A DNA stretch of 64,000 nucleotides from Azolla caroliniana (Eukaryota; Plantae; Polypodiophyta), in assembly GCA_043228905.1 (NCBI GenBank), contig JBHGNT010000119.1, positions 1 through 64,000 of the forward strand, given 5' to 3'. Positions within the stretch are counted from its first letter, which is position 1. Every line of letters starts with the position of its first letter. Below the pieces are notes generated by a model. It did no database searches, was not told where the DNA came from, and saw nothing but the letters and a program-made list of their open reading frames with translations. This document shows positions 23,861 to 64,000 of the stretch, piece by piece. Position numbers and translations under genes: made by a program.

Positions 23861-25328
23861 CCGACTTCCATTCCCCAATGAGCGTAATTGTAGTTGAAAT
23901 CCGTTGGATTTGATCCATTTGGATGTGTGGGGATCAACACTGAACGTCAGTCTTGGTGGACGCTGTTACTTCGTAACCTTCATTGCTGACTTCACTCGGC
24001 ATACCTGGGCGTGCTTGATTGTGAAAAAGAGCGAAGTCTTCGCGTGGTTCCTGAAGGTGAAGAGCCTTGCAGAAAGGGCAACTAGGCATAAGATCAAGTG
24101 CCTACGGTCCGATGGCTGGAAGGAGTACTTCTCCGACCAGTTCATGAGTTATCTACAGAAGGAGGGAATTCGACGCGATTTCTTGTGAAGATATACGTCA
24201 GAGCATAACGGCGTAGCCGAGCAGAAGAATCCGACAATCGAAGAAGCCGCCAGGGCAATGCTTGAAGAGAAGCATATGCCGAAGTTTCACTGGGCTGAAG
24301 CCGTAAGGACGACTGTTTACTTCCAGAATCGGACTTTTGCTAATGGAGGAGTGTCACCACATGAGTTATATTACAGGAAGAAGCTAACCTTGGCACACCT
24401 GAGGATTTTTGGTAGCATTGTGTATGTGCATGTGCCGAAAGAAAAGAGGAGGAACTTAGACGCCAAAGCCGAGAAGTGTATCTTGGTCGGCTATTCAGAC
24501 AAGCAGAAGGGGTATAAGTGCTATAACCCCCGAACAAAGGATGTTCGCGTAAGCCAACATGTCGTGTTTGACGAGTTCGGTTCGTGGTACTTGCCTTCAC
24601 CTCCAATACCTCATGACTCCATTCTGAATTCTGAAGAAGAGGTTAGCGAGGTCGAGCTGCCTCTGCGTGATGAGGAAATCGGAGCTCTAATAGAGAGTCC
24701 GATCTAATTTCGGCCAAGTGGGCCAAATGAGGGGTTGGGTTGAGATGGCTAACCAAATGAAGAGTCGGCGAGTAGTGGAGACTCGGTTGTGTTGTCCCCA
24801 CGTAAAGAACGAAGGAGACAGTTTACCTGTAAAGAAAAAGGAAGAAGAAAATGTCGGAATACGATTTTGGTAGTGCAGAGTCAGATCTGAGCGAATCTAA
24901 CTTCAGGCCAATCGAGAAGGAATCTCCGCGGAAGTGGTCGAAATCAGCCGGAAAGGTCGTGAAATCGGGTAATCACGAATTACGTCGATCTACCCACCTA
25001 AAGAACCCCGTAAAAAGATATGGATACAATGAATACATGGCTCACCATTACGCGTACAAGACATAAGTGGCGGAAGTGCATGAGCCGGAGAGCTACGCAG
25101 AAGCGGTGAAAGACGCGAATTGGCGTGCCCCGATGAAGGAAGAGATGTGCACTTTATCGAACAACGAGACTTGGGACCTGGTTGACGCACCTAAAAGTGT
25201 AAAGCCGATCGGATGTAGATGGGTGCTTAAGGTGAAATACAACACCGACAACTCGGTCAACCAATATAAGGCCCGCTTGGTTGCAAAAGGCTACGTGCAG
25301 AAACACGATGTAGATTACGACGAGACGT

Positions 25329-28300
25329 TGTCGTGGAGAAAACCGTCCCTAGGCGGAAACCGGGTATAACGTGCGTAAACCGACCCTTACACGTGGGCAC
25401 AAGTTTTATTGTATAGTACGTAGGTAGGTACAAGTCGCTTGAGGCGAAATCCTAGGTAGTATGCGTTCGGTAGGGAGGAAATCGAGGCGTATCCCTATCC
25501 GAAAGGATAGGGAATAAACATGATGTAACGAGTGGTAACGGCCTCCCTCCTTGGGTTATAAAAGAGAGGGAGAAGTGAGGGAAATACATCGCGTTTTTGG
25601 GAGCGAGGAGGAAGTTCTATCGGACCGGGACTGAGCTCTCACCTCCATCGTTCGACTTTCTCTGCAGGATTTCGGACTGTGTTGCCTCTGCTTCGTGGAC
25701 AGCCCGTGCGCTTTCGGCAGAGGCTCAACTATACAGTCGGGTTGTGTGTGCGTGCGTGAGCATCGTGTGTATGTGTGTGTGTCCGCCTGGGTTGAGTCCG
25801 TCGTCGGCTTGCCGGTTGTAATCGTTGTCGATTGTAATTAAGACTTTGTTCTCTCTCTCTCTTTCCTCCTCTGTGTTTCTGCAAGCTGCTCTCTCTTTCT
25901 CCCCTCTTTCTCACGCCCCTTGGTTCATGTCCCCCGCAGTCCCGCCTCTTTCCGAACGCGAAGAGTGTAACAACTCGACATATTTGGTGAACGCGAATAG
26001 GTGGCAAAGGAGTGAAGGATGAGGGGATCCGAGCTTGCTGAAGCTATGGCCGTAGCCGTCGACCGGCTAGTGAGCGCTCGCGAGGGAATGGGTGCCCTCG
26101 ATAGGGCCATTGAGTCGATCGTCGGCACCATAGGTCGATTCGGGGGGAAGAATACCACAAGCTACTTGGAGGCCTACCAGCCTGAAATGATCATGAGGGA
26201 TATCTTGGGGGACAGGCAGCTGTCCAGATTCCCTCGGGTAGTGACGCTGAGCATCCACGCAGAGGTGCTCGGGGTGTTGGCCGGATGCCGGACCTGGGAG
26301 GAGTTTGAGTTGCGGCTCCTTGAGATGTATGGGTTCGATGACTTGCTTCAGCTATCGAAGCGAGACTTCATGGCATGGGTTGAGAGCCCTGGGAAGGGGA
26401 GGAACACGTCGGCGCTCCTCCAAGAGTTCGAGAAACGGTTCGCACGGTTGTCAACGCTGGACCGGACCGTGCTTGACACAAGCCGGGTACTGCTATTCGT
26501 CAAGTCGGTGGACGCCATGGACCGGGAGAAGGTGGGTTTCCTGTTGGAAATGGATGAAGGGCTCATGACAGACTGGGCCATGGTAAGGAGGGTGTGCGGT
26601 CGTTTCGACAAGCGGCACAAGTGGAACAACGAGGGCTCGTCGGTGGCAAGACCGGTCCCGGCGAGGGAGCTCGAGGAGCCGGTGTCAGTACTGGATAGGA
26701 AGGAAGAAACTCGGAGTTGGCTTGAGGTGGGCTCAGCTCCGAGCGGAGTGGTCAAAGGTCCCTCCAGAGGCGCGGCTCTAGAAGAGCTGTCGCAGATGGT
26801 GCAAGATCTCCAAATTGCACAGGCCCGGAGGGACAACGGCGAACAGTCTCGTGACTGAAGGCCGCCGGTGGGGCAACGGTGCATGTGGTGCGATGTGGTC
26901 GGCCACATACAGAAAGAATGCGTGGATTTCGTAGAGGCACTCATGACCAACGTAGTTTACCTCTAGAACGGGCGGGTGCACGCGAGCGAGACCCGGAAAG
27001 CTCTAGAGTTGAATTCGGGACACGACGGAATGAAGCGGTTGATGGAAGAGGCCGCGGCACGACATGCAGAGGCCGTTAACTACTCGGCATTGGCGGGAAT
27101 CCAGGTCGGGGGTGATGAGGCCTGGAAAACGAAGGACTCCAGATTCTGGCTGCTGGTGCTAGAGAGTCTCCCCGGAGTACTGTTGAAGAAGGAAGAGGTA
27201 GACCGCGCGGAACAGTGGATCCGGGAGGTCACTAGATGGGACGACCCGGTGGAAGAGAAGACTGGCTTCGTGGCAGCCGCATGCCAGAACTACGAGGTTC
27301 TGGTAGAAGACAAGCGCGTGGGAAAGGCCGGAGGGGCAGGCCCCTTGCAGCGGTACGAGATCCAGTTCGGACGGAAGCCGAATGAGGCTGCCAACCCCAG
27401 CGCACCGGAGAAGAAGAAGTAGGCCGGTTTCCGGTTGAGCACCGAAATAGAACGAACAACGGACCTGCGGAAGGTCCTGGAAGAGAGAATTCTCGACAAC
27501 AAGGTCGAGCTGTCGTTACGGGAGGTGCTGGGAATCGCCAAGAAGGAGTTCCACGACTCCATCGTGGACTTGGTGAAGCGGAAGAGGCTCTTGACGGAAC
27601 CGGAACCGGAGAGGCTGGTGGAAGTGCGGATGACGCACTTAGAAGACACAGCCCTAGAGGATAAGTTGGCGGAAAACCACTACACGAAGCCGCATTGGGC
27701 TAGGGCCACTACGGAAACCCCTGTTCGGATCGGCAACGTCCAAGAGAGAATTCTCGACAGCAAGGTCGAGCTATCGTTACGGGAGGTGTTGGGAATCGCC
27801 AAGAAGGAGTTCCACAACTCCATCGTGGACTTGGTGAAGCGGAAGAGGCTCTTGACGGAACCGGAACTGGAGAGGCCGGTGGAAGTGCGGACGACACACT
27901 TAGAAGACACAACCCTAGAGGATAAGTTGGCAGAAAGCCACTACACGAAGCCGCATTGGGCTAGGGCCACTACGGAAACCCCTGTTCGGATCGGCAACGT
28001 CCAGGAGCCGGTGGTGGCATTGGTAGACCACGGTTCGGAGATCAACCTGATCTCCATGGACTTCTATAAAAGGGGGAAATGGCCGATCAACACCAAGCAC
28101 GGGTGGAAGATACTCGCGGCGATGTGCGCTACAGAGGAGCTGCATGGTGCGTGCCGGAACGTACGCGTGAAGATCGGCGACGTCGAGATAGATCAACATT
28201 TCTTCGTGCAGGAGACTTCCTCGCACCTGGTAAATCTCGGCAAACCGTACATTATGGCAGCGCGCATGGGGACGAAAGTACTGGACAACGGTTCGGTGTA

Positions 28301-31300
28301 TGTGCGCGTCAAGAGCCAAGACGGTCGGCATTCCGTCCAATTCATGACAGTGCGACCCAACCACGAGCGAAACCGCGGGACCCTCGACGGCGATAGCCGA
28401 GGGTATTTTTAGAGAGGGCTATCAAGGCTGGGGCCGCGATAGTCCGGACACCCTGGAAAAACCCCCACAGATGTACTATAGGCAAAAACACTTGTACCAT
28501 AGGTAGAAAATTATGGTTCTCCAATAGCGATGGTTGTACGATAGCCGGCGTAGTTGGCCGGGAAAAGAAGTGGGCGGAGGAGCGGCTTTGGGCGTGCGGA
28601 GTCCTCGGCCCTGAAGAGGAAATCAACGGAGCCGTGGAGGGGTCTCTTTCGACGACACGTTGGGCAAGTTACAGGAGGTGTTTGGAGAAGTCCTTAATGA
28701 GGACCGGACGATTCCGGTATGTTCGGAAAAGATGTACGAAGTCATCGCCGACTTCGGTAGTGGACTCGAGTCGGATCGGACGACTCCAGTGGATACGAAG
28801 TACAAGACTGTGGACTGGAAGGTGAGGCCAGTCGCGGCACCCTTGCCGGAGGGCAGCAAGTTACGGATAAAGGGGGTCATGTCGGACCCAAGTTTACGAG
28901 ATCCAACTAGCATAGGACACACGTTCACCGACATAATGCTACGGGAGCTCAAGATCGGTGGGGGTGGTTTTCTACTACCAGCGGAAGAGGATTGGTTTCG
29001 GAGAATGCTCAGGAGGCACGGTAAGGCTTTCGCATTCTCTCCAGAGGAGATCGGGTGCGTAGACCCGAAGGTTGTGGAACCAATGGTGATCTTCATGGTA
29101 CCGCATGTGCCGTGGAGTCTCAAACCGATTCCGGTACCTAGAGCTCCCATCCCGAAGCTGATGGAGCTGCTGAAACAGAAGGTTGAGATGGGCATCCTTG
29201 AACCGTCGAGTGCCCCATATTCGAATCGGTGGTTTACCGTGCCAAAGAAGAACAGCGCATTGCGCGTCATATAGGACCTACAACCGGTGAACAAGGTGAC
29301 CATTCGAAACGCAGGTATCGGACCGACCATCGATGAGTTCACGGAGGCTTTCGCAAGGAGGTCGATCTACTTGGTCGGGGACTTGTACTCAGGCTACGAT
29401 CAGTTCCAGCTAGCCGTAGAGAGCAGGGATGTCACGACGATGCGGAATCCTCTCGGTCTAGTTCGGATGTGTACCTTGCCACAAGGAGGAACGAACTCGG
29501 TGGCACACATGGTGAATGCGATGAACAAGGTGTTGAGGGACTGCATCCAAGACATCATCATTCCGTTTCTGGACGACATCCCGATCAAAGAATGTCCGGT
29601 GGAGGACAAGGATGAGTCTATCGGGCCCGACGGTTGCCGGAGGTTCGTGACGGATCACATCCGCGACTGCGAGAAGGTGCTACAAAGACTCGAGAGCGCA
29701 CGACTCACCTTCTCCGCAGAAAAATCAGCATTCAGACAGCCGGAGATCCTGGTAGTCGGACACTTGTGCGGGCCCTATGGCCGGAAACCGTCCCCGGCAA
29801 AGGTAGAAGCCATCTCCGTGATGAATGACGATTGCGGGTCGATTACGGAGGTCTGTAGATTCTTGGGTGCGTGCGCGTTTTACCACATCTGGATTCCGCA
29901 CTACGCACATGTCGCGGAACCGCTCTACGGGCTATTGAAGAAAGGGCGTAGGTTCGAGTGGAGGATGGAGCACACGGAGTCGGTCCGGAGGCTGAAGGAG
30001 GCGCTTGCTGCGGCACTAGCTCTCCGGAAAGTGGTTTATGGCAAGGAAGTCCCCATCTACGTGACGGTGGACACAAGCCCGACCAGGATCGGGTGGGTGA
30101 TCAGTGAGGAGGACAAGGACAGCGTATGGTTCCCGATCCAGTTCAGGGCGAAGGTATTGAGCAAGTGGCAGCGAGGATACGCCCAAGTTAAGCGCGAGCT
30201 GTGGGGTATCGTTTCAACAGTCAAGGCCGACAAGGACTATCTGATCAGGACGGAAGTGATCATCGAGACAGACTTCCCAGTGATTTTAGGTATGGTCTCC
30301 GGATGCGCGACTCCGGACTTGGCAGTGCTCAAGAGGATTACGTACATCAAGTCCTTGAACCCGGAGATACGGCACATCTCTGGGAAGATAATGCCATGGA
30401 CGATATGCTTTCAAGGGCTCGGTTCAACGACAAGGAGGGCATGATTTCGGATAACGAGGAAGTCGGCGAGTATTTCTTTGGGTCAGCCAATGTAACAACA
30501 AGAAAGGGGAGCCCTCCGGCACTTAATGAATTCGACAAGAGCAAGTACGATGGGGAGTGGCTCCAAATCGGAGGGTTCCTGAAGACAATGACACCGGACG
30601 CGGCATGGACGAAGGAAGAGACCAACCGGATTCGGAAGAAAGCATACCGTTTCTTTCTACAGGACGGGAGCATATGGAAGTACCCAAAGAAGAGAGACGA
30701 CATCCCGCTCCGAGTGGTGGCGAAGAAAGAGGAACATTTAGAATTGCTGACGGCGTATCACGAGAGTCCCTGGGCCGGACACGCGGGACATGGGCCACAT
30801 TCGAGAAGCTAAAGGGGAAGTATTGGTGGCCGGGACTATACCAGGACGTGCATCGGTTCATGACGACTTGCGAAAGCTGTCAGGTGCACTCCATAGTCTA
30901 ACATCGGGACGAGCTCCACCCGACCTACCCTCCGACTGTCCACTTCAAGTTGATGGTGGATCTGGTGACGATGCCGATGGGGGTAGGGCAGATGCGGTAT
31001 CTGGTGCTGGCTCGGGAGGACCTTACGAACTAGGTGGAAGGTCGAGCGTTGCAGAGCAAAATGATCGCGGTCGTGTGCCGATTTTTGATCGAAGAAGTGG
31101 TATGCCGGTACGGGTGCGTAGGTAAGATCGTGGCCGACCGCGGGGAATTGGACGCGCAATAGGTGGAGGAGCAGTTTGATTGGCTAGGAATTAAACTCTC
31201 GCTCACCACGGCGTACAATCCGGAGGCTAACGGGAAGGTGGAGCGCAGAAACGGGCCGATCGTCAAAGCGTTGGTACGGGCGTGTGGAGGCCATGTTGGG

Positions 31301-31995
31301 AACTGGCCGCAGCTCTTACCCTATGCGTTGTGGGCGGACCGAACTATGCACAGTTCGGTAACCGGGTTCATGCTGGCAGAGCTAATGTACGGACAAAAGC
31401 CGATCATGCCAACGGAGCAGACAATCTCCTCGTGGGCCACCGTGGACTGGAAAGACGAGATGATTCGAGAGGAGCTGTTAGCGGCACGGATTTGGCAGTT
31501 GGAGCGAAGACCGGAGGACGTGGACCGAGCCGCGGAGAAGTTATGGGTGGTGAGGGTAAAGAACAAAAGACGGTTCGACCGGACTCACCAACTGAGACCG
31601 AAGAAGATCGAGAAAGGCGACTGGGTTCTAGTGTATGACAGCAACCTCAACAACCAGCACCGGGCAACGCGAAAGTTTGCAAGAAGGTGGTTCGGGTCTT
31701 ATGTGGTGACGAGCGCCAACGACAATGGGACCTACCATCTCGCAGAGCTCGACGGGACAAGGATGGCGGTACCGGTGGCGGGGAAAAGGATCAAAGCCTT
31801 CAAAAAGTGGCACGAGGCTGAACCGGACCCGGGCGACCTGGATAGCGACAACGACCGGCTCGGAACGGATGCCGATCCGGAAGACGAAGGATAAGCGTGG
31901 GCCGGTCTTCTCCGGCAGGAGTCTAATTTTGGCACATACCGGTGGATGCGCGGTTAGGTGGCGGCGGATGTCGTGGAGAAAACCATCCCTAGACA
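25329..31995 (+). mobile_element. tRNA-Trp-primed 'ACGT-family' Ty3/gypsy, copy 2. 5' LTR 25329-25980, gag-PR 26019-28412, pol ~28409-31894 (degenerate), 3' LTR stump from 31969
   Basis: tgtcg..cgaca LTR preceded by acgt; degenerate PBS tggtgaac; CMWCDVVGHIQKEC; VDHGSEINL; DLYSGYDQF, LPQGGTNS, FLDDIPIK; YNPEANGKVER. Confidence 0.93.
27481..28002 (+). repeat. 261-bp (87-aa) in-frame tandem duplication in gag upstream of the protease
   Basis: aagagagaattctcgac at 27481 and 27742; ERILD..PVRIGNVQ occurs twice; single copy in the 57.5-59.4 kb element. Confidence 0.95.
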
Positions 31996-47245: not shown

Positions 47246-47262
47246 TGGTGAACCCGACGTGA
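47246..47262 (+). promoter_or_regulatory. Primer-binding site complementary to the 3' end of tRNA-Trp
   Basis: TGGTGAACCCGACGTGA is the reverse complement of the plant tRNA-Trp(CCA) 3' end TCACGTCGGGTTCACCA (sequence recalled, not searched). Confidence 0.8.
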
Positions 47263-51071: not shown

Positions 51072-51389
51072 GTCCTATTTTTGGCGCCTGCGCATGCCCT
51101 GTCATGAATAGCATGTCTGTCCTTTGCTGCCGCGTGTCCTGCTTGCGCTTCTTTGCCGCGTGTGTCGAATCTCCTACGTGTCTGTCATTATGACTCCTTG
51201 ATTGCCGCACGTATTAAGTCCTGTACCTCGGCGCCCCCACGTTCTGTGCTTTAAATAGCTCGTGCACCCGTGTGACGGTTGTAACTACTCCCTTCATCAT
51301 TCCCATGATTTTCTTGATCTTCTTGTCTTGACTTTTCTTCCCGTAGCTCCACGTCATTCTTTTTTTTTTTTTTAAAAGCATATGCCGCA

Positions 51390-54300
51390 TCATTGTTCGG
51401 TTCCCCCCGATGTGTTCGGGTCGGTGCGCACTGTTGTCGGTTCCTCGCCATTCGGGTTTTCCGGGTCTTGCTTGAAGGGGTTAGCTGGCATGTGCCCCTT
51501 ATACGGTTTTAGGCGAAACCCATTTGCCCATTTGCCCACAACTTCTCCTGACAACGTCCCGAGCTGGTAAGACCCATTGTACTCCTTTGTGATCCAGAAT
51601 GGTCCGGTCCATCGAAATCGCAATTTCCCCGGCATGTTCCCCATCCGTGTCTGGAACAGCAATACTGGTTTCCCGACTTCGAATTCCTTTTCGTTACCGC
51701 GCCGATGTCGGTCTACAAAGGCTTTCCTCCTCCTTTGCTCTAGTTCTAGCTGTAGCAGGCTGGCTATTCGATTCTCTTCCAGTTCCGACAGCATCGCCAG
51801 CCGGATTCGTTCGGATTCCTTCTCGCTTAACCGCTCCTTAACCTGTATTCTTAAGCTAGGAATTTGGAATTCTACTGGCATGACTGCTTCCAAGCCGAAT
51901 GCCAGTCGGAACGGGGTCGTCCGGATGCTAGTCTTGTACGCCGTTCGGTACGCCCACAGCACGCTCTGCAACTTCGTGTCCCAGTCGGTCCGGTTCTCAT
52001 TGACGATTTTTCTAAGGATGTTCTGTAGCGTTTTATTCGTTGATTCCGCTAATCCGTTGGCTTGAGGGTAGTAGGGAGTGCTTCGTTTGTGTACTACCGC
52101 ATAGAATGAGGTCAAACTTTCCACCACCTGCCCGAGGAAATGTCCTCCCTGGTCACTGATCAGCTCAATCGGGCATCCGTACCGACACCATATGCATTCA
52201 TATAAAAATTTGGCCGTGGACGCCGCCGTGTTGTCCCGTAGTGCCTTTGCTTCTACCCATTTGGTGCAGTAGTCGATAGCCACTATTATATACCGATTTC
52301 CGGTTCGCATTGCCGGTGGCTTGAAGGGGCCGACAAAGTCTAAGCCCCACTTTTGGAATGGTTCTAATGGCAAGACCGGGTGATGTGGCATCCGGGCCTG
52401 CTCCGTGGGTTGGCCCAGTCGTTCACACAGGTCGCATTCCCTGCTATACTTAACGGCATCTCTCATGGTAGTCGGCCACCATAGTCCGCTCTGCCATATC
52501 TTCCGGGCTGTTGTTTCGCCGGCGTAATGCCCGCCTGCAATTCCACAGTGGGCTTCCCTCAGGATCAGATCCTTTTCATCGCTCCGCACTGCTCGCCTCC
52601 ATACGCCATCTGCCCCCTTGTGATAGAGGGTGTCTCCTACCAAGCAGAAATGTCTGCTCCGTACTGCCATCCTCTTTCGTTCGTCTCGGTCCAGGTTTTC
52701 CGGGGGAACTCCGGTGCTCAGGAACTGATGCATTTCGGTTAACCATTTGTCTTCGTCCGCTACTGTGGTCTCCGTTGCCGGTGCCGTCGTGACCTTAAAC
52801 AGCTCGGCGTCGGGAAATTCGTCCTCTACGCCGTCCCCTGATTCTCCGGATTCTAGCCTGCTCAGGTAGTCTGCTACCGCATGCTGCACCCCGGCTCGGT
52901 GGAAAATGTCGAATTCGAATTCCTGTAATAGCAGCGTCCATCGTGCGAGTTTTCCTGTCAGGGCTGCCTTTGAGACCAGGTAGAGTAGTGCCGAGTGGTC
53001 AACGTGGAAGGAGAACTTTCGTCCGAGCAGATAGTGCCTGTACTTTGTGACGCTGTACACCATTCCTAATGCCTCTCGTTCCGTTGTAGAGTAGTTCCGT
53101 TCGGCTTTCGAGAGTTTCCTGCTTGCGTAGTACACCGGCCGATACCATTTCGGTTCCGTGAGTTGCATCAAAACGCTGCCGATTGCTACGTCCGACGCGT
53201 CGACGAAGACGTGAAAGCTTTTACTCCAGTCCGGCGGCTGCACCACCGGAGCTTGTGACAGCATGACCTTCAACGCTTGGTAGGCTGCCTCCTCCGTTTC
53301 TGTCCATTGGAAAGGTACTCTATGTACAGCAGCGTGCAATGGTGTCGCAAAGTCGGCAAGGTGCCGTATCATCCGACTATGCCACCTTATTTGACCAAGG
53401 AATCGGCTTAAAGCTTTTGCGCTATTCGGTGCCGGTGCGTCGAGAATTGCTTTTACCTTATCCGGATCTACCGCGATTCCTTCTCGACTCACCACGTGGC
53501 CTAACAAATTGCCGCTTGCGACTCCAAAGACGCACTTAGCCGGGTTCAGACTTAATCGGTACTCGCGGCACTTTTCTAAGCATAGTCGTAGGTGATCGAG
53601 ATGCTCTCTGTGTCGGCTGTAGACGGCGAAATCGTCTAGGAAGACCTGCATAAAACCGGGAATAAAATCACCGAAGATTTCCATAATTATCCTTTGAAAT
53701 GTTGCAGGGGCTGTCTTTAATCCGAACATCATCACGACCGCGACGAACACTCCCCATTCCGTCACGAACGCTGTTTTCTCTTGGTCGGCCGGGTTCATTC
53801 GGATTTGGTTGTAGCCGCTGAATCCGTCCAGGAAGCTGTAAACTTCGTGGCCGGCCACCGCATCTAGCACTCCGTCCGTGAATGGTAGTGGAAAAGCGTC
53901 GGTCACTGTCGCGGCATTTAGTTTCCTGTAGTCCACACATACCCGGATTTTGCCGTTCTTTTTCGGGACCACCACTATCGGGCTTAGCCAGGTTGCCTGC
54001 TTGACTGGTCGGATAAATCCGACCCGGAGGAGCTTGTCAATTTCCTCCTTCACCTTTGCCGCATAGTTTGGATTCATCCGGTACCGACGTTGAGCGATGG
54101 GTTTCGCGTCAGTACTTAGATGAATTTGGTGCTGGTAGAGCTGGGGGTCCAACCCTCGCATGTCTTCGTATGACCATGCGAACACGTCCTTGAAATCCGT
54201 TAACAGTGCTACCATTGCCTGTTTTTCCTCCTTCGGCAATTCCTTCGCGACTTTTACCGGTCGGGGTTGTTCTGTTGTGCCGAGGTCCACCTCTTCCAGC

Positions 54301-57155
54301 TGGGATGCTTTCACCCTTTGGGATATCGTCATTTCTCTTTCTAGGGCTTCCTGTGCTTGGCGTAGTTCCCGGATCGCCACCTTGTCCGGTTCGTCCGGCA
54401 TTGTGATGTACGGCTCTACTGCTGCCGTGATATCCACCTCAAAAAGTGGGACGATCTGTGGGTGTTCCTCGAGGTACCGATCAACTTCCTCGTCCGGTAA
54501 GCCCTCCAACATGTTGATGCTTTCGGCATATAAAGGGGTTGCCTCCTTGCTAGTGAGCACCCGTGGTTGCGTGGCTACCCGTACCTTTGTTTTCCCTCGT
54601 CGGAACATGATCATATTCTTTTGCCAGTTTTGCTTGATATGCGCCGTTCGCAGCCATGGTCTTCCTAACAGTAGGGGATATGCGCCTTGTACCTTCAGCT
54701 CTAGTACCACGGCCGATATTCGGAATACGTGGCCTCCTATTGTTACTTCCAAGTCCCGGATAAGACCGGTTGGTCGGACTGAGCTTGTATCCGCCATGCG
54801 TAACCAGAAGGGGCATGGTTCCCACTCCTGGATGCCTAGGTCGTCGCATGTCTGTCGACTAATGACGTTCACCCCGGAGCCTCCGTCAATAATTGTTCCT
54901 GGAATCTCCTTTCCTTTGACGATTGTCGTGATTGCTGGGCTACTGGTATCAACCACCGCTGGGCCTTCCTCCGGGTTGGAGAAAAATGCCGGTGCTGGCG
55001 TCGGCGTCGGTTTACGCACGGCAGCTTGTAAGTCTGCTGTAAACCTCGGCACCAACTGCAGTAACCGTGCCAACGGCAGCACGATCTGACAATCTTGTAG
55101 TGCTTGCCATGTCGGGTTTTCTCCTGGCTGTACGATTTCCTCCTCCCTTGGCATATTTTGGTTTCTTACTTCCGCCGCACCTTGTTCGTTGGCTTCTTTG
55201 ATCCATTGTGCCGCTTGTTTTCTGATTGCTTCCTGGGCTTCCCATTCGGCGGCCTTCCCCTTCGACCGTGTGGTAACCTGCTGTACTTCGGCTGTCACCA
55301 TGTTGACTGCTGGCTGCTTGTCGGCTGTTTTGCTTGGGCATTGATTACTGTAATGCCCTTCTTTTCGGCAGTAATAACAGTGCACCCTGTGCGTGTTGCT
55401 AGATTCTCCTTTTTCCCATGTTTGGGGGAGGGGCATTCCCCGGCGGTTGTCCTCGGTTTTTCGGTTCTCCGGTGCCGCTACTGGTTTGTCGTTCCTTGTT
55501 GCCTCCCGACGCTCCTCTCTACGGAAGAATCCACGCCTTTGGTTCCGTCGGAAATTCCGGTTCCCTGGCCGCCTTTCTTCTCTGCGTCGCTCGTATTCCG
55601 GGGATTCGTCTCGGTCGTACCGGTCCCGGGGGTAGCTATCCCTTCGGTTCTCCTCTCGGTCATAGCTGTCGCGTCTTCTATCGGGGTATCTGTCGCCGCG
55701 TTCTCGTCGGTAGCGGTCGTCCCTCCGGAATCGATCCTCTTCCGGGTCCCGATTGCGCGGTTCTATGTGTCGGACCGGTGCTGCTTGTCGAGTTAACAGG
55801 TTATACTCGCATCGGTTCGTTGTGTGGGCGCGAGAATTGCATATCATGCACTGTGCACGCAGGGTGCAGTCGACGGTCGAGTGCCCCGCATTTAGGCATG
55901 TTGTGCATTGTAGTGCTTGTCGGAACCGGAGGTCCTCCTCCTTCGGCAGCGCCTGGTGTAACGCCCCCATCGGCAGGAAGGGGCTCGTGTTGTCCATTTC
56001 CAGGACCCGATCAATGACTTGGTCCATTGTGCTGGTGCTGAAATCGAGGATTCCACACATCGCTCGAAGTGGGTCTTTTAACGCAGCCAAAAAGACTGCC
56101 TTGGCCTCCTCTTCGGGTGGTGCTCTTGCTAATTGACTGTGCAAGGTCTGGAAACGAATGATAAATTGTGGGACCGTCTCGTTTTCTCCCTGCCGAGTGG
56201 TGTAGAATTGTCCGACCAATTCCCTTTGTTCCACTCGTCTATGAAACAAGCGTAAAAACTGGGTTTTCAATGCCTCGAACGTGGCGAAGCTGCCTGGTAA
56301 GTGCTTTGCGTGCCACCGGGCCGCCGGTCCTTCTAATGTCATGCCGAATTCGGCGATTTTGGATCGGTCGGCCTCGGGCTCCGTCAATCTCTGGGACACG
56401 TGGTTGGCTTCCCATGTTCGCAGGAATGCATACACATGTGCCTCTCCGTCGGGCTCATCCCGATACTTTGGGTACGGATACGGCATCGTGTCGTCCCACT
56501 GATTCTCCTGCGCTGGTTCCTCCGATGTCGGTCTCCGCTCCTGCGGTTCCTCCGCAGGTGGTGTTGGTATCCGCTCCTGCGGTTCCTCCGCGGGTGGTGT
56601 TGATAACCGCTCCTGCGGCTCCTCCGCGGGTGGTGTTGGTATCCGCTCCTCCCTCCTCGGCGATTGCCGGTCACCGAACTCCAGAGTTATTTCCTCCTCT
56701 GGCTCCGATGTTGCTGAGTGATCCGACTCAAAGGGGTTGTTCTCGTGGCTGCTTTTATAGCGGGATCCCACGCTTTCCCCGCTATCTGAATCCGCCTCTA
56801 ATGTTGCAAATGCCGCTGCGTCCCCGTCGCCGCCGGCGAGAGTCTGTAGTAGTGTCTCCGCTTCTTGGAGGCTGGTTATGCTACTGCCTTCGTCGGAAGC
56901 TTGTAGAACCTGGAACTGCAGTGCTTCTTCTGCGATTTGCCGAAGCGTTTTTGAGAATGACCGATCGCGCCGGATCTCGTCGACGGCTTGCTGCAGGGCT
57001 TCCCGTCGTCGCTGCCGTTCGGCGTGGCGTCTCCCTCTTTCGGTGATGTGGTCGTTATTTTGTCTAGACATCCATCCCCCGGTTGTCCTCTGCACTCTGC
57101 AGGAATCGTGGTCGCCAAAATAGTGTTGTATGTATGGCTGGACTAGCCTCAACAC
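51390..57155 (-). CDS. Gag-Pol polyprotein (gag, 3 CCHC knuckles, PR, RT, RNase H, IN); true start probably an internal ATG such as MSRQ at ~57071
   Basis: 1921-codon open frame; IDGGSGVN; CVDYRKLN, FLDGFSGYNQI, FLDDF; TEREALGMV; GLDFVGP, SDQGGHF, YYPQANGLAE. Confidence 0.95.
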   Translation of the reverse strand: MLRLVQPYIQHYFGDHDSCRVQRTTGGWMSRQNNDHITERGRRHAERQRRREALQQAVDEIRRDRSFSKTLRQIAEEALQFQVLQASDEGSSITSLQEAETLLQTLAGGDGDAAAFATLEADSDSGESVGSRYKSSHENNPFESDHSATSEPEEEITLEFGDRQSPRREERIPTPPAEEPQERLSTPPAEEPQERIPTPPAEEPQERRPTSEEPAQENQWDDTMPYPYPKYRDEPDGEAHVYAFLRTWEANHVSQRLTEPEADRSKIAEFGMTLEGPAARWHAKHLPGSFATFEALKTQFLRLFHRRVEQRELVGQFYTTRQGENETVPQFIIRFQTLHSQLARAPPEEEAKAVFLAALKDPLRAMCGILDFSTSTMDQVIDRVLEMDNTSPFLPMGALHQALPKEEDLRFRQALQCTTCLNAGHSTVDCTLRAQCMICNSRAHTTNRCEYNLLTRQAAPVRHIEPRNRDPEEDRFRRDDRYRRERGDRYPDRRRDSYDREENRRDSYPRDRYDRDESPEYERRREERRPGNRNFRRNQRRGFFRREERREATRNDKPVAAPENRKTEDNRRGMPLPQTWEKGESSNTHRVHCYYCRKEGHYSNQCPSKTADKQPAVNMVTAEVQQVTTRSKGKAAEWEAQEAIRKQAAQWIKEANEQGAAEVRNQNMPREEEIVQPGENPTWQALQDCQIVLPLARLLQLVPRFTADLQAAVRKPTPTPAPAFFSNPEEGPAVVDTSSPAITTIVKGKEIPGTIIDGGSGVNVISRQTCDDLGIQEWEPCPFWLRMADTSSVRPTGLIRDLEVTIGGHVFRISAVVLELKVQGAYPLLLGRPWLRTAHIKQNWQKNMIMFRRGKTKVRVATQPRVLTSKEATPLYAESINMLEGLPDEEVDRYLEEHPQIVPLFEVDITAAVEPYITMPDEPDKVAIRELRQAQEALEREMTISQRVKASQLEEVDLGTTEQPRPVKVAKELPKEEKQAMVALLTDFKDVFAWSYEDMRGLDPQLYQHQIHLSTDAKPIAQRRYRMNPNYAAKVKEEIDKLLRVGFIRPVKQATWLSPIVVVPKKNGKIRVCVDYRKLNAATVTDAFPLPFTDGVLDAVAGHEVYSFLDGFSGYNQIRMNPADQEKTAFVTEWGVFVAVVMMFGLKTAPATFQRIIMEIFGDFIPGFMQVFLDDFAVYSRHREHLDHLRLCLEKCREYRLSLNPAKCVFGVASGNLLGHVVSREGIAVDPDKVKAILDAPAPNSAKALSRFLGQIRWHSRMIRHLADFATPLHAAVHRVPFQWTETEEAAYQALKVMLSQAPVVQPPDWSKSFHVFVDASDVAIGSVLMQLTEPKWYRPVYYASRKLSKAERNYSTTEREALGMVYSVTKYRHYLLGRKFSFHVDHSALLYLVSKAALTGKLARWTLLLQEFEFDIFHRAGVQHAVADYLSRLESGESGDGVEDEFPDAELFKVTTAPATETTVADEDKWLTEMHQFLSTGVPPENLDRDERKRMAVRSRHFCLVGDTLYHKGADGVWRRAVRSDEKDLILREAHCGIAGGHYAGETTARKIWQSGLWWPTTMRDAVKYSRECDLCERLGQPTEQARMPHHPVLPLEPFQKWGLDFVGPFKPPAMRTGNRYIIVAIDYCTKWVEAKALRDNTAASTAKFLYECIWCRYGCPIELISDQGGHFLGQVVESLTSFYAVVHKRSTPYYPQANGLAESTNKTLQNILRKIVNENRTDWDTKLQSVLWAYRTAYKTSIRTTPFRLAFGLEAVMPVEFQIPSLRIQVKERLSEKESERIRLAMLSELEENRIASLLQLELEQRRRKAFVDRHRRGNEKEFEVGKPVLLFQTRMGNMPGKLRFRWTGPFWITKEYNGSYQLGTLSGEVVGKWANGFRLKPYKGHMPANPFKQDPENPNGEEPTTVRTDPNTSGGTEQ
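56510..56652 (-). repeat. 36-bp coding tandem repeat (ERIPTPPAEEPQ, ~3.5 units) in the gag N-terminal region
   Basis: Visible in both the DNA and the translation. Confidence 0.9.
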
Positions 57156-57499
57156 AGGTGTCTATCCGACACTTCTCCAAAGGGGTGGTAGGGATAGAAT
57201 GTTAATACACGCGTATGATAATTACACTTAAGCACAGACGAAGACAAGATTAATCAGCATAAGCAAAACTATATTAATTCTTCGCCCCTTCATTACAAAA
57301 CATCGGATCCTTTTATAGGCATCCGGCCAGATTACAATCGGTGCTCGGTAGGCAACCGTTAACCGAAACCGAATCGGTTCGGATCCGGATCGGTTACAAC
57401 TACCGGATCCGTCCCTCCTAATAATTCTATTCCTATTTCTATATTTATCCGATCCGACCTTGCTTTCCCATTTGCCTTCTCTGACCGGCCAACACCGGA

Positions 57500-59435
57500 A
57501 GAGAGGCGTCTTGCCGGGTTCCCTCGAGTGGCGATGCCGAGCATCCATGCGGAGGTGCTCGAGGTACGGGCGGAGAGTCGTACCTGGGAGGAGTTCGAAG
57601 GCCGACTCCTAGAGAAATATGGGCCGGACGACGCGCTCTGGCTTTCGAAACGGGACTTCATGGAATGGGTGGAGTCCCCCGGCAAAGGAAGAAACGCGTC
57701 GGCACTCCTCCGGGAGTTCGAAGAACACTTTGCGCGCCTTTCGGCGCTTGACCGAACTATCCTGGATACGAGCCGGGTCCTACTGTTCGTCAAGTCGGTG
57801 GACGAGCGGGACCGGGATCAAGTCGGCTCCTTGCTGGAAACCGAAGACGGGTTGACAACCGACTGGGCTGCGGTTAAGAGAGTCTGTGGCCGTTTCGACA
57901 AACGGCGAGAATGGGCTGACAACGGGGCGGCCGGTGCGGGCTCTGTTACAGCAAGGAGGCTTGAACCGGCGCCGCAAGTACGAAGGGAAGAAACCCGGGA
58001 ATGGCTTGAAACCGCTCTGGCTTCGACCGTCATGGTCAATGGCTCGTCCAGAGGAGCAGCGCTGGAGGAGTTGACGCGGGTGATAAAGGATCTCCAGATC
58101 GCCCAGACTCGAAGGGAAGGCGGCGAACCGGCTCGTGACCGACGGCCGGCAGCGGGGAACAGGTGCATGTGGTGCGACGAGGTCGGCCACATTCGGAAGG
58201 ACTGCGGCGATTTCGCAGAGGCGTTGAGAAACCGGGTGGTGTACCTATGGGAAGGCCAGGTGCACGCTGGCGACACCAGGAGGGCCCTGAGCCGAAACGA
58301 CGGGCGAGGAGGTATGAAGAGACTGATGGAAGAGGCAGCGGCCCGACACGTGGAGGCCATCCACTACTCGGCGTCGGCCGGTATTCGGGTCGGGGGCAGC
58401 GAGACCCGAAAGGAGAGCAAAGACGGTTTCTGGTCGGCAATGCTGGAAGGCCTCGCCGGCGCGCGACTGAGGAAAGATGAAACGGACCACGCTGAGAGAC
58501 GGGTCCGGGAAATAACCGGGTGGAGCGATCCGGTCGAGGAGAAGACGGGCTTCATAGAAGCCGCTTGCCAGAAGTACGAGGCTCTGGTAGAAGAGAAACG
58601 AGTGGGGAAAGCCGGAGCGACCGGGCCCTCACAACGGTACGAGACCCGATTCGGACAACGACGGAACGATGCCGGTGGGCCCTGCCCGCAAGATAACCCC
58701 AGGAAGGGCGGGTACCGACTGGGGACAGAAATAGAAAGGACTACGGACCTACGGAAGGTCCTAGAGGAACGGATCCTCGACAACAAAGTGGAGATGTCAT
58801 TGCGAGAGGTGCTAGGGATCGCCAAGAAGGAATTCCACGACTCCATTGTGGACCTGGTGAAACGGAAGAGGCTGTCAATGGAGACGGATCCGGAAAGACC
58901 GGTAGAGGTGCGGACAACGCACATCGACGACTCGGCGCTGGCAGATGAGTGGGCGGAGAGCCACTATTCGAGGCCACACTGGGCCCAAGCGACCACGGAG
59001 ACCCCGGTAAAGATCGGAGATGTTCGGGAACCGGTGGTGGCATTGGTGGACCACGGTTCGGAAATAAACCTAATGTCCATGGACTTCTATAAGAAGGGGA
59101 AGTGGCCGATCAACACCAAGCACGGGTGGAAGATACGGGCGGCGACGCGCGCCACCGAGGAACTGCATGGGGCCTGCCCGAACGTGCGAGTCAAGATCGG
59201 CGACGTCGAGATTGACCAGCACTTCTTCGTACAGGAAACGTCTTCGCACCCGGTCATATTAGGTGAACCATACATCACGGCGGCGCGAATGGAGACCAAG
59301 GTGCTAGACAACGGTTCGGCCTACGCAAGGGTCAAAAGCCAGGACGGGCGCCATTCGGTCCAATTTCTGACCGTGAGACCGAACCACGAGCGGAACCGCG
59401 AATCCCTTGGTGGCGAGAACCGGGAGGATTTTTAG
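57500..59435 (+). CDS. Gag-protease ORF of ACGT-family copy 1; N-terminus at 47286-47476, separated by the Athila-like insertion
   Basis: CMWCDEVGHIRKDC; VALVDHGSEINLMS; VILGEPYI; ends REDF*. Confidence 0.88.
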
Positions 59436-59534
59436 AGAGGGCTGCCAAGGCGTGGGGCCGAGGCAGTCCGGACACTCGGGAAAGACCCCACAGCTGTACG
59501 AAGGAACAGAAACCGAAGAAACCTTGTACGATAG

Positions 59535-62500
59535 GTAGAAATTTTCTGCTTCTCCGGCAACGGAGGGTGCATGATAGTCCGCATCGTTGGGCGAGAAAAG
59601 ACAAGGGCGGAAGTGCGACTTCGAGCGTGCGGAGTTCTCGGCCCGGACGAGGAAGTCAGCGGAGCCGTGGAGGCGGTCTCCTTCGACGACACCTTGGGGA
59701 TGCCGAGGAAGGTTGCCGGAGAAGACCTTAACGAAGACCGGACGATACCGGTATGTTCCGAAGAGATGTACGAAGTCATCGCGAACTTCAGTCGGGGGCT
59801 CGGGTCGGATCGGACGGCCCTAGTTAGCACAAAGTACAAGGCTGTGGACCGGAAGATAAGGCCAGTCGCGGCACCCTTGCCGGAGGGCAGCGAGTCCCGA
59901 ATCAGAGGGGTGGCGTCGGACCCCAGTTTACGAGACCCGGCCTGGATAGGACACACCTTCACCGACGGGACGCTCCAGGATCTCAAGATCGGTGGGGGCG
60001 GGTTCCTACTGTCTGCGGAGGAAGACCGGTTTCGGAAAATGCTCGGAAGGCACGGGAAAGCCTTCGCATTCTCGCCGGAAGAAATCGGGTGCGTAGACCC
60101 GACGATCGTGGAGCCGATGGTGATATTCACGGTACCACATGTATCGTGGAATCTCAAGCCAATTCCAGTACCGAGAGCTCACATCCCGAAGTTGATGGAG
60201 CTATTGAGGCAGAAAGTCGATATGGGTATTCTCGAACCGTCGCGCGCGCCATACTCGAACCGATGGTTTACCGTACCAAAGAAAAACGGAACATTGCGCT
60301 TCATTCAGGACCTGCAGTCGGTCAACAGAGTGACCATCCGGAACGCAGGAATCGGACCGACCATAGACGAGTTCGCGGAGGCCTTCGCCGGAAGGTCGAT
60401 TTACTCGGTCGGTGATCTGTACTCGGGGTACGACCAGTTCCAGCTAGCCGTGGAGAGCAGAGACATTACGACAATGCGAACTCCCCTCGGCCTAGTGCGA
60501 ATGTGTACCCTGCCACAAGGAGGGACCAACTCGGTGGCCCACATGGTGAATGCAATGAACAAAGTACTGAGGGATTGCATCCCGGACATCACCATGCCGT
60601 TTCTAGACGACATCCCCATCAAAGGGTGCCCGGTGGAAGAGAAGGACGAGGCACTCGGGCCGGACGGATGCCGGCGATTCGTAGCAACACACATCAACGA
60701 CTGCGAGAAGGTGCTACAAAGGCTAGAGGATGCGAGGCTCACCTTCTCCGGGGAGAAATCGGCCTTCGGGCAATCAGAAATCCTGGTGGTGGGGCATCTA
60801 TGTGGACCATATGGCCGGAAGCCGTCTCCGGCAAAGGTAGAAGCCATCTCCGCGATGAAGACCGACTGTAGCTCGGTTACGGAAGTTCGGAGGTTCCTGG
60901 GGGCATGCGCGTTCTACCACATATGGATCCCGCATTACGCCCACGTTGCGAAGCCACTATACGGTTTCCTGAAGAAGGGGCAAAGATTCGAGTGGCGAGA
61001 CGAGCACACGGGGTCGGTCCGGAAGCTGAAGGAAGCTCTTGCGGCAGCACCGGCGCTCCGGAAGGCTGTCTACGAGAAGGGTACCCCGGTATACATAACG
61101 GTGGATACGAGCCCGACCGGGATCGGATGGGTCGTCAACTAAGAAGACGAGGACGGCACCCGGTTCCCGATCCGATTCGGCGCTAAGGTCCTCAGTGACC
61201 GACAACGAGGGTACGCCCAGGTTAAACGCGAGCTCTAGGGTATCGTTTCGGCGGTAAAGGCGGACAAGGACTACCTGATCGGGACAGAAGTGATTATCGA
61301 GACGGATTGCCTGCCGATTCTCGGCATGGTTTCCGGATGCGCGACACCGGACCTGGCGATGCTCAGGTGGATAGCGTACATCAAGTCCCTGGACCCGGAG
61401 ATACGACACATTTCCGGAAAGGACAACACCATGGCCGACATGCTTTCGAGGGCGAGGTTTGATGACGAGGGCGACCGGACTTCTTCGAGGCGGCGTACGT
61501 GACGACCGATGGGACGAGCACTCCGGCACTTAACGACTTCGACGAGAGCAAGTACGACGGCGAGTGGCTCCAGATCGGTGGATTCTTGAGGACAATGACG
61601 CCGGATGCGTCATGGACGAAGGACGAGGCCAACCGGATCCGGAAGAAAGCTTACCGACTCTTTCTCCGGGACGGATACTTATGGAAGCCCCCAAAGAAGA
61701 GGGACAGCACTCCGCTCCGAGTGGTGGCAATGCAGAAAGAACAGGAGGAGCTGCTGACGGCCTACCACGACAGCCCTTGGGCCGGACACCGTGGAACCTG
61801 GGCCACGTTCGAGAAGATAAAGGGGAAGTACTGGTGGCTGGGACTGTACCGGGACGTGCATCGATTCGTGACAACTTGCGAGAGCTGTCAGATGCACTCC
61901 ATAGTCCGACACCGGGACGAACTTCACCCTACGTACCCTCCGACCATCCACTTCAAATGGATGGTAGACCTGGTAACGATGCCGATAGGAGCAGGACAGA
62001 TGCGGTATCTGGTCCTGGCTCGGGAAGATCTAACGAACCAGGTGGAAGGCCGGGCCCTTCAGAACAAAACGACTGCGGCCGTATGTCGGTTCCTGCTCGA
62101 GGACGTAATATGCCGGTACGGATGTGTCGGGAAGATCGTGGCTGATCGCGGGGAGTTGGACGCCGAGGAGGCCAAGGAGCTGTTCGACCGGTTAGGGGTC
62201 AAGCTCTCGCTTACCACTGTGTACAATCCAGAGGCAAATGGGAAGGTGGAGCGCGGACACGGACCGATCGTCAAGGCGTTAGTTCGGGCATGCGGAGGTC
62301 AAGTCGGGAACTGGCCGCGGCTATTGCCTTACGCGTTGTGGGCTGACCGGACTACGCACAGTTCGGTAACCGGGTTCATGCCGGCAGAGCTCATGTTTGG
62401 GCAGAAGCCGATCATGCCGATCGAATGTACGGTCTCCTCATGGGCAACCGTGGACTGGAGAGACGAGATGAGCCGGGAGGAACTGTTGACGGCGCGCATA

Positions 62501-62902
62501 CGACAGCTCGAGCGGAGACCGGAGGACGTGGAGTAGGCTGCGGAAAAGCTTCGGGTGGCCAGGACGAGGAACAAAGCCCGGTTCGATCGGACGCACCGGC
62601 TCCGACCGAAGAAGATCGAGGAAGGCAACTGGGTGCTAGTCTACGACAGCAGCCTCGACAACCAGCACCGAGCGACGCGGAAGTTCCCAAGAAGGTGGTT
62701 CAGGCCTTACGTGGTACAAAGCGCCAACGACAACGGGACGTACCATCTGGCGGAACTCGACGGCACGAGAGTGGCGATACCGGTAGCTGGGAAACGGATC
62801 AAAGTGTTCAAGAAGCGTCACGACGACAAGCCGGATCCGGTTGACCTAGACAGGGACGACGAACGATCCGAAACCGAGGAAGAACCGACGGGCGGGGAAT
62901 GA
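59535..62902 (+). pseudogene. RT-RH-IN pol of ACGT-family copy 1, with stops (61140, ~61236, 62534) and a deletion near 61470
   Basis: ORFs 59571-61142, 61290-61502, 61499-62536 and 62555-62902 are colinear pol segments. Confidence 0.88.
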
Positions 62903-64000
62903 AGGCTAGACCGGTTTTCTCCGTCCCAACACAATTGGCGCATGCCGGTGGATGCGCGGTTAGGTGGGGGCGGATGTCGTGAAGAAAACCGACCACGAGC
63001 GGAATCGGTGCACCGGAGCGTAGAAACCGACTCTTCATGCACGTGCGACTTAAGTTGAACATAGGAGATCCTAGGTAGATTCGGTAGGTAGGGAGTAAAG
63101 GGGAAACGGCTCCTTCCTTGCCTATAAAAGGAGGGAGACGAGGAGGGTAGAAGGATCGCGGAGAGTCGAGGACGAAGTGCTGTCGGTTTGCGTGCGAAGG
63201 CTTCTCTCTCTCTCTCTCTCTTTCTGGTTGCAAACGCCATAGCTTCCTTTTGTGCAGGTTTCGAGGAGGCCGCGCTGCTCTGAGGAATGCCCGAGTGCTT
63301 CCGGCAGCACCTCCAACCTACTCATTCCCCTCTGTGCGTTTACGAGCAGGCATCGGCATCTGTTCGCCGGCCTGTTCGGTTGTAACCAACTTCGTGTTTT
63401 GTTGACTTCGTGTTCTTGTTGTTTGTCTTGTCAATACATACATACTTTCGTGTCTTTCTGTGTCGCTGTCCCACTCGCGTCTTTGCGTCGAAGGGCCGTG
63501 TCCCTGTGAATCTACGCTCGCACGTAGTGGGTCTACCTCTCTTACTCTTCGGTACAGGACCCCCGAGGTCCCGCCTCACTCCACGCATCCGCGAGGAATA
63601 CCTCGACAACGTGTGTGAGCATCTCTCTCTTTCCTCCCCTTTTCTCACCTATTCCTCGGTCCAAGACCCTAGTGGTCCCGCCTTGTTCTCCACACACGCG
63701 CGTAGCAACGCGACAACGTTCATAAGTTTTCCTTTCTGCCCGACATGGCTCATGGGAACTTCACCGACATTCGCGATCAGATGCGGAGTGTCGTCTCCAA
63801 TTGCGACTACTCCTGGTTGCGTCGGTTTCTCAAGGTATGAGAACCACTCCTTGTGGCACGTCATGTGGTTTGACGGGCCGGAGTTGACATACAACACCTC
63901 GTCTGATTTTGGGGCGGACTGTTTCATTGAGTTTGCTTCGTGTCTCGTCACGAAGACTGACCCTTTTCCGGCTTTTCTGGATCCTTCGGCATAGTGCGAT

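What the first reader, a model, noticed from the sequence alone, without database searches (positions are those of the whole stretch)
25325..63719. Gypsy family that integrates at ACGT with a 4-bp target duplication
All six readable outer junctions of four independent insertions are ACGT: 25325-25328 (copy 2 left), 37680-37683 (copy 3 right), 46028-46031 and 63716-63719 (solo LTR), 46602-46605 and 63609-63612 (copy 1). The duplication is 4 bp and the fifth base differs, while the three other complete elements here have unrelated 5-bp TSDs (CCGAC, AAAAT, CCGGA), the usual plant pattern. Host sequences are unrelated (copia RT, copia PR, own LTR, unique DNA), so the preference appears sequence-specific. 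Sequence-specific 4-bp TSDs are known in insect errantiviruses; I do not recall this for a plant family. ACGT is a CpG palindrome and the bZIP/G-box core, so targeting could depend on methylation and affect promoters (inference).
Basis: seen in the sequence. Interest (0 to 1): 0.85.

Follow-up and report, generated by a model that had tools for sequence, protein, structure and literature searches.

The report
CG-targeting Phygy-like plant retrotransposon
The four ACGT junctions are real, but related copies show that this plant jumping-gene family inserts at almost any four-letter site with CG in the middle (ACGT is only the commonest), a habit already published for the moss Phygy lineage, to which it likely belongs.

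Summary
Observation confirmed: all six junctions read ACGT. Two are complete 4-bp duplications, two are one-sided, and paralogous host sequences carry a single ACGT. The interpretation needs two corrections. First, the target is not strictly ACGT. Of 77 independent left flanks of related copies in metagenome contigs, 72 are NCGN and 29 are ACGT; 16 of 18 right flanks are NCGN. The profile is (A>C>G)CG(T>G>C), with no signal outside the four bases. Second, it is known in plants. Neumann et al. 2019 (PMC6317226) report Phygy gypsy elements with 100% 4-bp TSDs, an NCGN preference, a tRNA-Trp PBS and no extra domain. This family fits TSD length, motif and domain content, and its gag-protease hits Physcomitrium proteins (42%). 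A tree with REXdb Phygy references could not be built. Likely mechanism: the integrase kinks target DNA at a central CG step, as the foamy virus intasome does at VYRB, with added CG readout. Dependence on methylation is untested. New member of a known kind; low interest.

The parts
25325..25328 (+). ACGT target site left of copy 2 (host copia RT codons E-T)
   Evidence: a paralog at 40100-40200 (minus) has a single ACGT
25329..25980 (+). copy 2 5' LTR, 652 bp
25985..26001 (+). copy 2 primer-binding site, degenerate
26016..31894 (+). copy 2 gag-protease and pol, broken by stops and frameshifts; 261-bp internal duplication at 27481-28007
31969..31995 (+). remnant of copy 2 3' LTR; the rest and about 270 bp of host are deleted, so there is no right TSD
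34063..36889 (+). copy 3 internal pol fragment (RT/RH/IN, broken); 5' end missing
36890..37679 (+). copy 3 3' LTR, 790 bp
37680..37683 (+). ACGT right of copy 3 (partner not present)
46028..46031 (+). ACGT, left TSD of solo LTR (host copia protease region, minus strand)
46032..46605 (+). solo LTR, first part; ends in ACGT 46602-46605, the left TSD of copy 1
46606..47241 (+). copy 1 5' LTR, 636 bp; 629 of 634 aligned bases identical to its 3' LTR
47246..47263 (+). copy 1 primer-binding site: exact complement of an 18-nt plant small RNA ending in CCA (annotated miR894); tRNA-Trp identity is recalled, not shown by a tool
   Evidence: one search found no tRNA gene
47286..47476 (+). start of copy 1 gag, interrupted by a nested gypsy
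47477..57494 (-). unrelated nested gypsy element with a 5-bp CCGGA TSD (not part of the family)
57498..59435 (+). copy 1 gag-protease (weak DUF4100 hit; 42% identity over 273 columns to Physcomitrium patens A9U4T6)
59535..61142 (+). copy 1 reverse transcriptase and start of RNase H
61466..62902 (+). copy 1 integrase (HHCC, D-D-E), one in-frame stop at 62534-62536, no chromodomain
62962..62974 (+). polypurine tract abutting the 3' LTR
62975..63608 (+). copy 1 3' LTR, 634 bp
63609..63612 (+). ACGT, right TSD of copy 1
63613..63715 (+). solo LTR, second part (solo LTR 677 bp in all)
63716..63719 (+). ACGT, right TSD of solo LTR

Best explanation
These are four insertions of a non-chromovirus Ty3/gypsy retrotransposon family, likely of the Phygy lineage, whose copies sit at four-base host sites with CG in the middle, most often ACGT, likely because the integrase itself cuts with a 4-base stagger around a CG step. 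Shown: the 4-bp duplication, the host origin of the site, the (A>C>G)CG(T>G>C) profile, and no preference outside the four bases. Inferred by analogy with the foamy virus intasome (4-bp TSD, consensus VYRB): the target is sharply kinked at the central pyrimidine-purine step, and T is disfavoured at the joining base. Bendability alone does not explain the data, because CG is only 14% of the pyrimidine-purine steps in the host flanks yet 72 of 77 sites are CG. The integrase is therefore inferred also to read the CG bases directly. The solo LTR likely arose by recombination between the two LTRs of one element, which keeps the TSD.
For: Left flanks: 72 of 77 NCGN against 3.25% background (P about 1e-100). 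Position 1 is A48 C19 G9 T1 and position 4 is T47 G16 C10 A4. Right flanks mirror this: 16 of 18 NCGN, 9 ACGT. With three borderline loci added, 74 of 80 are NCGN, and 4 of the 6 exceptions have CA or TG centres, as expected from CpG decay. Flank positions -14 to -6 do not depart from host composition; -5 gives p=0.03 uncorrected. In four public runs that hold the window's element, contig depth on the solo-LTR junction rises at 46028-46029, i.e. on ACGT/CGT (X1: 975 at 46026-27, 12773 at 46028-29, 29945 at 46032-33), with unrelated loose ends before it (semi-quantitative). Phygy description: 186 elements, 4 bp 100%, NCGN, tRNA-Trp 81%, no extra domain. Gag-protease hits two P. patens proteins. 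RT groups with liverwort and fern sequences and is only 25-26% identical to two other window gypsy RTs. PFV consensus VYRB and the kink model come from PMC4422553. PFV and Ty3 integrases are the nearest solved relatives.
Against: No tree with REXdb Phygy references: that FASTA file was too large to read, and no named P. patens RT or integrase appeared in the listed rows (best 120 of 184 and of 246). Copy 1 is about 7.0 kb and copy 2 about 7.3 kb, a little below the Phygy range of 7.66-9.97 kb. The tRNA-Trp identity of the primer is recalled (one search found no tRNA gene). The flank set comes from related copies, not this genome: LTR identity median 74%, maximum 88%, for the 81 of 121 loci that aligned. 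All but two of the 121 loci carry names of one assembly series, and the set is conditioned on an exact 20-nt LTR start. Of 8 LTRs with host DNA on both sides in those contigs, only 3 have matching 4-mers. The other 5 are probably assembly chimeras across a high-copy LTR, but that was not shown. There is no biochemical evidence for how CG is read.
Confidence: 0.7

Rival explanations
1. The same family and motif, but the preference is for methylated CG: the integrase, or a host methyl-CG reader bound to it, picks 5mCG steps and so steers copies into already silenced repeat DNA without a chromodomain.
For: The centre is CG rather than any flexible step (72 of 77 against a 14% share of YR steps). 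Three of the four window insertions are in older retrotransposons. 4 of 6 non-CG centres look like deaminated CG. Phygy was reported enriched in centromeres of a liverwort (PMC12885004). The element has no chromodomain.
Against: No methylation data were available. CpG decay can follow insertion, because new copies get methylated. Nesting in repeats is expected in a window made almost wholly of repeats. Drosophila ZAM-group elements prefer CGCG in a genome nearly free of CG methylation (recalled), so CG readout needs no methyl mark.
Confidence: 0.2
2. A host bZIP or bHLH factor bound to ACGT-core (G-box) sites tethers the integration complex, so insertions fall in promoters.
For: ACGT is the commonest site: 29 of 72 NCGN sites against 7% expected, P about 2e-15.
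Against: Positions 1 and 4 vary independently (Fisher p=0.63), as expected from per-base preferences and not from a bound motif. C before ACGT is 11 of 29 against 27% background (p=0.12). 48 of 77 sites are not ACGT. A protein sitting on the site would more likely shield it (inference). The window sites are in coding parts of old elements or in an LTR.
Confidence: 0.04
3. Strict ACGT specificity, perhaps limited to this genome's subfamilies.
For: 4 of 4 window insertions are at ACGT; P about 0.02 under the pooled rate.
Against: Copies starting with the same 20 bases use at least 13 different NCGN 4-mers. In runs that hold the window's element, loose ends also begin at 46029 and 46030, not only at 46028.
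Confidence: 0.04
4. ACGT is part of the element's own ends or an annotation artefact, not a host duplication.
For: An identical 4-mer at every outer end would look the same in one window.
Against: Inner LTR ends lack it (39 PPT-preceded LTR starts; PBS-followed ends). Host paralogs carry one ACGT in frame. Outer 4-mers vary among copies.
Confidence: 0.01

Closest known systems
Phygy lineage of plant non-chromovirus Ty3/gypsy elements (Neumann et al. 2019, PMC6317226; Physcomitrium patens)
   Same: 4-bp TSD; NCGN preference; short element nearly filled by gag-pol; no chromodomain, aRH or extra ORF; PBS matching the tRNA-Trp 3' end (identity recalled); gag-protease homologous to P. patens proteins.
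   Different: Slightly shorter (about 7.0-7.3 kb against 7.66-9.97 kb). The host is unknown and probably not P. patens; the nearest named RT relatives are from Riccia and Adiantum. The motif is resolved here as (A>C>G)CG(T>G>C); whether P. patens Phygy has the same edge bias is in a supplementary table that could not be read.
Prototype foamy virus integrase (PMC4422553)
   Same: 4-bp TSD; palindromic VYRB consensus, of which VCGB is a subset; T avoided at the joining base; among the nearest solved integrases.
   Different: PFV's preference is weak and accepts any YR centre and extends into the flanks. Here the centre is CG in about 94% and the flanks are flat. The loop after the second catalytic Asp is one residue shorter, at the place of PFV Ala188.
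Drosophila errantiviruses and derivatives: gypsy, ZAM/Tirant, Idefix groups (PMC5408687)
   Same: Sequence-specific palindromic 4-base targets (TATA, CGCG, ATAT).
   Different: Insect hosts and an env gene in errantiviruses; different motifs; no env-like ORF in this family; no sign of close kinship.
Selgy and TatI lineages (PMC6317226)
   Same: Non-seed-plant non-chromoviruses with 4-bp TSDs; TatI also uses tRNA-Trp.
   Different: Selgy uses tRNA-Ala and is about 5 kb; TatI has an extra aRH domain, not detected here; neither is reported to prefer a sequence.

Membership tests
Ty3/gypsy LTR retrotransposon | LTRs TG...CA, PBS, PPT, domain order PR-RT-RH-INT | tested here: met
Phygy | Clusters with P. 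patens Phygy elements in RT-RH-INT trees (the primary definition) | tested here: inconclusive
   Reference FASTA unreadable; the tree has no Phygy reference; indirect link through gag-protease hits to P. patens A9U4T6 and A9U6H8
Phygy | 4-bp TSD | tested here: met
   2 of 2 complete pairs in the window; mirrored left and right flank profiles
Phygy | NCGN insertion preference | tested here: met
   72 of 77 left and 16 of 18 right flanks
Phygy | PBS complementary to tRNA-Trp | tested here: inconclusive
   The PBS is the exact complement of an 18-nt plant small RNA ending in CCA; Trp identity recalled; no tRNA gene found in 31 viral loci
Phygy | No chromodomain, aRH or extra ORF; polyprotein fills the internal region | tested here: met
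   Pfam on window ORFs, and on 5 long pol relatives plus two integrase C-terminal segments; frames
Phygy | Length 7.66-9.97 kb (descriptive range, not a defining trait) | tested here: not met
   6980 bp for copy 1 without the nested element; about 7290 bp estimated for copy 2
TatI | Extra archaeal-type RNase H domain | tested here: not met
   No second RNase H hit
Selgy | PBS for tRNA-Ala | tested here: inconclusive
   The PBS is recalled as the tRNA-Trp end, not Ala, but no tool named the tRNA; about 7 kb exceeds Selgy's 4.4-6.7 kb
Chromoviruses (Tcn1, Galadriel, Tekay and others) | Chromodomain at the integrase C-terminus | tested here: not met
   the window's other gypsy at 22173-23402 does score Chromo, as a positive control
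Errantivirus | env ORF between pol and the 3' LTR; insect host | tested here: not met
   pol ends at 62902 and the LTR starts at 62975
Fungal Ylt1-like clade | Clusters with Ylt1 in RT-integrase trees | not tested
   Leads only: gag-protease look-alikes mostly Basidiomycota, Smittium integrases, Olpidium RT; no Ylt1 reference fetched (PMC2864245 passages)

The most novel reading that the evidence does not exclude
Phygy-type integrases read methylated CG directly: a chromodomain-free retrotransposon that finds silenced DNA through the catalytic core itself, with about 94% central-dinucleotide specificity, helped by a target-binding loop one residue shorter at the foamy-virus Ala188 position and a conserved L-[DE]-[NH]-Q-H loop in the C-terminal domain.
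Probability: 0.2. Interest if true: 0.6.

Novelty: new member of a known kind. Interest (0 to 1): 0.2.

Why it matters
At face value it matters little: the plant lineage, its 4-bp TSD and its NCGN preference were published in 2019. The additions are small. The trait holds in a high-copy family outside the moss where it was described (host inferred), and the motif is resolved to (A>C>G)CG(T>G>C) with no flank signal. It would matter more if the mechanism were worked out. Almost fixed CG specificity is unusually sharp for this enzyme class, so the clade is a good system for asking how integrases gain base-specific readout and whether methyl-CG can direct integration. In practice, annotation tools that require 5-bp TSDs will miss this family.

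Tried and rejected
No whole genome is held, so the genome-wide logo was replaced by metagenome contigs (121 loci fetched of about 230 estimated). Rows dropped before the count of 77, from 124 matches: 39 PPT-preceded 3' LTR starts; 5 below the family-similarity cut (L017 and L065 look like chance matches; L028, L040 and L060 are probably family and are added back in the 74-of-80 figure); and 3 duplicates (L016, L062, L100). For right flanks, PBS-followed ends, one truncated end (L014) and one false PBS hit (L094) were left out. One search (contigs laid on the whole 3' LTR) listed no flank rows, because its tables were cut; 31 viral loci matched the PBS complement, none was a tRNA gene, so the primer tRNA was not named by a tool; the paper search did not help. 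Searches found no relatives in viral contigs. PMC7466625 gives no TSD data for moss RLG2/RLG3. The idea that the one-residue shorter integrase loop is a plant-family innovation causing CG readout was weakened. It is in 88 of 89 scorable close homologs (of 120), but also in 106 of 135 scorable distant ones (of 143), including Smittium fungi, while Chara relatives keep the longer spacing. It is an old clade trait whose link to targeting is unknown. The RT tree joins long branches at its base and was not used to argue for gene transfer. The ESM Atlas look-up of the integrase gave only generic integrase clusters. Earlier scan notes: nothing on this family.
Full report
Observation. The six 4-mers are ACGT at the stated coordinates, each next to an LTR end. 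The family has four insertions here. Copy 2 has a 5' LTR at 25329-25980; its 3' LTR is cut after about 24-27 bp, together with about 270 bp of host. Copy 3 has only its 3' part (LTR 36890-37679). A solo LTR spans 46032-46605 plus 63613-63715. Copy 1 (46606-63608) sits inside that solo LTR; its LTRs match at 629 of 634 aligned bases, and it is itself interrupted by an unrelated gypsy. Only the solo LTR and copy 1 show both sides; their 5-mers differ, so the duplication is 4 bp. The site is host DNA: uninterrupted copia paralogs in the window carry one in-frame ACGT at the matching place for copy 2 and for the solo LTR, and inner LTR borders lack it. The other three elements have 5-bp TSDs CCGAC, AAAAT and CCGGA. 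The four copies' LTRs are 63-73% identical, and four random sites would share a 4-mer with probability about 1e-7.

What the target really is. No genome is held. A scan of metagenome contigs for the 20-base LTR start gave 121 loci (about 230 estimated) with 124 matches. 39 follow the polypurine tract, 5 were dropped by a family-similarity cut and 3 were duplicates, leaving 77 independent host junctions. 72 of 77 are NCGN (background 3.25%) and 29 of 77 are ACGT; next come CCGT 10, ACGG 9, ACGC 6 and GCGT 5. Position 1 is A48 C19 G9 T1, and position 4 is T47 G16 C10 A4. Right flanks mirror this: 16 of 18 NCGN, 9 ACGT. Adding back three borderline loci gives 74 of 80, and 4 of the 6 exceptions have CA or TG centres, the products of CpG decay. 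69 of those 74 NCGN sites fit VCGB, and positions 1 and 4 are independent (p=0.63). Positions -14 to -6 match host composition; -5 gives p=0.03 uncorrected; C before ACGT is not enriched (11 of 29, p=0.12). At a rate of 0.38, four ACGT in four has P about 0.02. Caveats: these are related copies (81 of 121 loci align to window LTRs, median 74%, maximum 88%), almost all from one assembly series. Only 3 of 8 two-sided LTRs in those short-read contigs have matching 4-mers, which I attribute, unproven, to chimeric assembly. In four public runs that hold the window's own element, contig depth on the solo-LTR junction jumps at 46028-46029, and loose ends begin at 46027-46030 and at the LTR start. This fits a frequent but not exclusive ACGT (semi-quantitative).

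What the element is. The domain order is PR-RT-RH-INT, with no chromodomain, second RNase H or env-like ORF; length is about 7.0-7.3 kb. The PBS (47246-47263) is the exact complement of an 18-nt plant small RNA ending in CCA, listed as miR894 in PMC5846777 (passages seen). I recall this as the 3' end of plant tRNA-Trp, but no tool confirmed it. Named RT and integrase relatives are from Riccia, Adiantum, Calypogeia and, more distantly, Chara and fungi. Gag-protease hits Physcomitrium patens A9U4T6 (42% over 273 columns) and A9U6H8. In a 44-row RT tree the window copies fall among unnamed, liverwort and fern rows, far from two other window gypsy RTs at 25-26% identity. The host is therefore likely a non-seed land plant (inference).

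Mechanism. PMC4422553 (passages and section 14 seen) gives the foamy virus site as KWK\VYRBMWM with a 4-bp TSD, a sharply kinked central YR step and avoidance of T at the joining base. The profile here, VCGB, is a subset of this, so the same geometry likely applies (inference); PFV and Ty3 integrases are the nearest solved relatives. Flexibility alone is not enough: CG is 14% of the YR steps in host flanks but 72 of 77 centres, so direct CG readout is inferred. Two structural leads, both untested. The stretch after the second catalytic Asp is one residue shorter than in PFV, Ty3 and three other window gypsy integrases, at the PFV Ala188 position (PFV numbering partly recalled). An L-[DE]-[NH]-Q-[HY] loop is conserved in the C-terminal domain (70 stored proteins matched). 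The shorter loop is also in 106 of 135 scorable distant relatives, including fungi, so it is old and may be unrelated to targeting. Methyl-CG dependence is possible but has no direct support; bZIP tethering and strict ACGT specificity are disfavoured.

Comparison with what is known. Neumann et al. 2019 (PMC6317226; passages, part 3 of 8 of the text, and supplementary files 3 and 4 seen) state that Phygy elements prefer NCGN. Their table gives 186 elements, TSD 4 bp in 100%, tRNA-Trp in 81%, 7.66-9.97 kb and no extra domain. Additional files 1 and 3 were too large to read; they bear on exact TSD frequencies and on membership. PMC6911290 (passages) describes pooled plant 4-bp TSDs as GC-rich in the centre with AT-rich edges. 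PMC12885004 (passages) reports Phygy in a liverwort, enriched at centromeres. So the family works like Phygy on every trait that could be tested, apart from a slightly shorter length; formal membership by tree is inconclusive. I found no paper giving the VCGB refinement or a mechanism for Phygy. This rests on searches for Phygy (18 papers, mostly listing only), NCGN with retrotransposon (3 papers), in a library that lacks most subscription journals.

Verdict. The claim of a new ACGT-specific plant family reduces to a new member of a known kind with a known NCGN preference, here sharpened to (A>C>G)CG(T>G>C). Interest 0.2. The boldest reading left open, direct reading of methylated CG by the integrase, has probability about 0.2 and would deserve about 0.6.

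Noticed in passing
window 41516-45561 (+): Complete copia-type element with an AAAAT TSD; its single 702-aa ORF (42235-44343) joins gag-protease directly to a partial RT with no integrase domain, and its LTRs hold 54-bp tandem repeats. Likely a deleted, non-autonomous copy.
   Followed up: no
window 47246-47263: The family's PBS is the exact complement of the 18-mer annotated miR894 in plant small-RNA studies, likely a tRNA 3' fragment that could silence these elements.
   Followed up: partly
window 47477-57494 (-): Very young nested gypsy (372 bp of LTR 100% identical) with an intact-looking 1923-aa polyprotein and an extra 1058-aa ORF (47898-51074) with no Pfam hit.
   Followed up: no
window 15441-16440: Tandem array of a 140-bp unit, about six to seven copies, up to 99% identical, just after a LINE-like RT ORF at 13127-14941.
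   Followed up: no
window 61466-62533 and homologs: Integrases of this wider clade are one residue shorter after the second catalytic Asp (88 of 89 close, 106 of 135 distant homologs); Chara relatives keep the usual spacing.
   Followed up: partly
L038 and L096: Family copies appear inserted into the family's own 3' untranslated region or LTR, as copy 1 is in the window.
   Followed up: no
window 27481-28007: 261-bp tandem duplication, in frame, inside the gag-protease region of copy 2.
   Followed up: no
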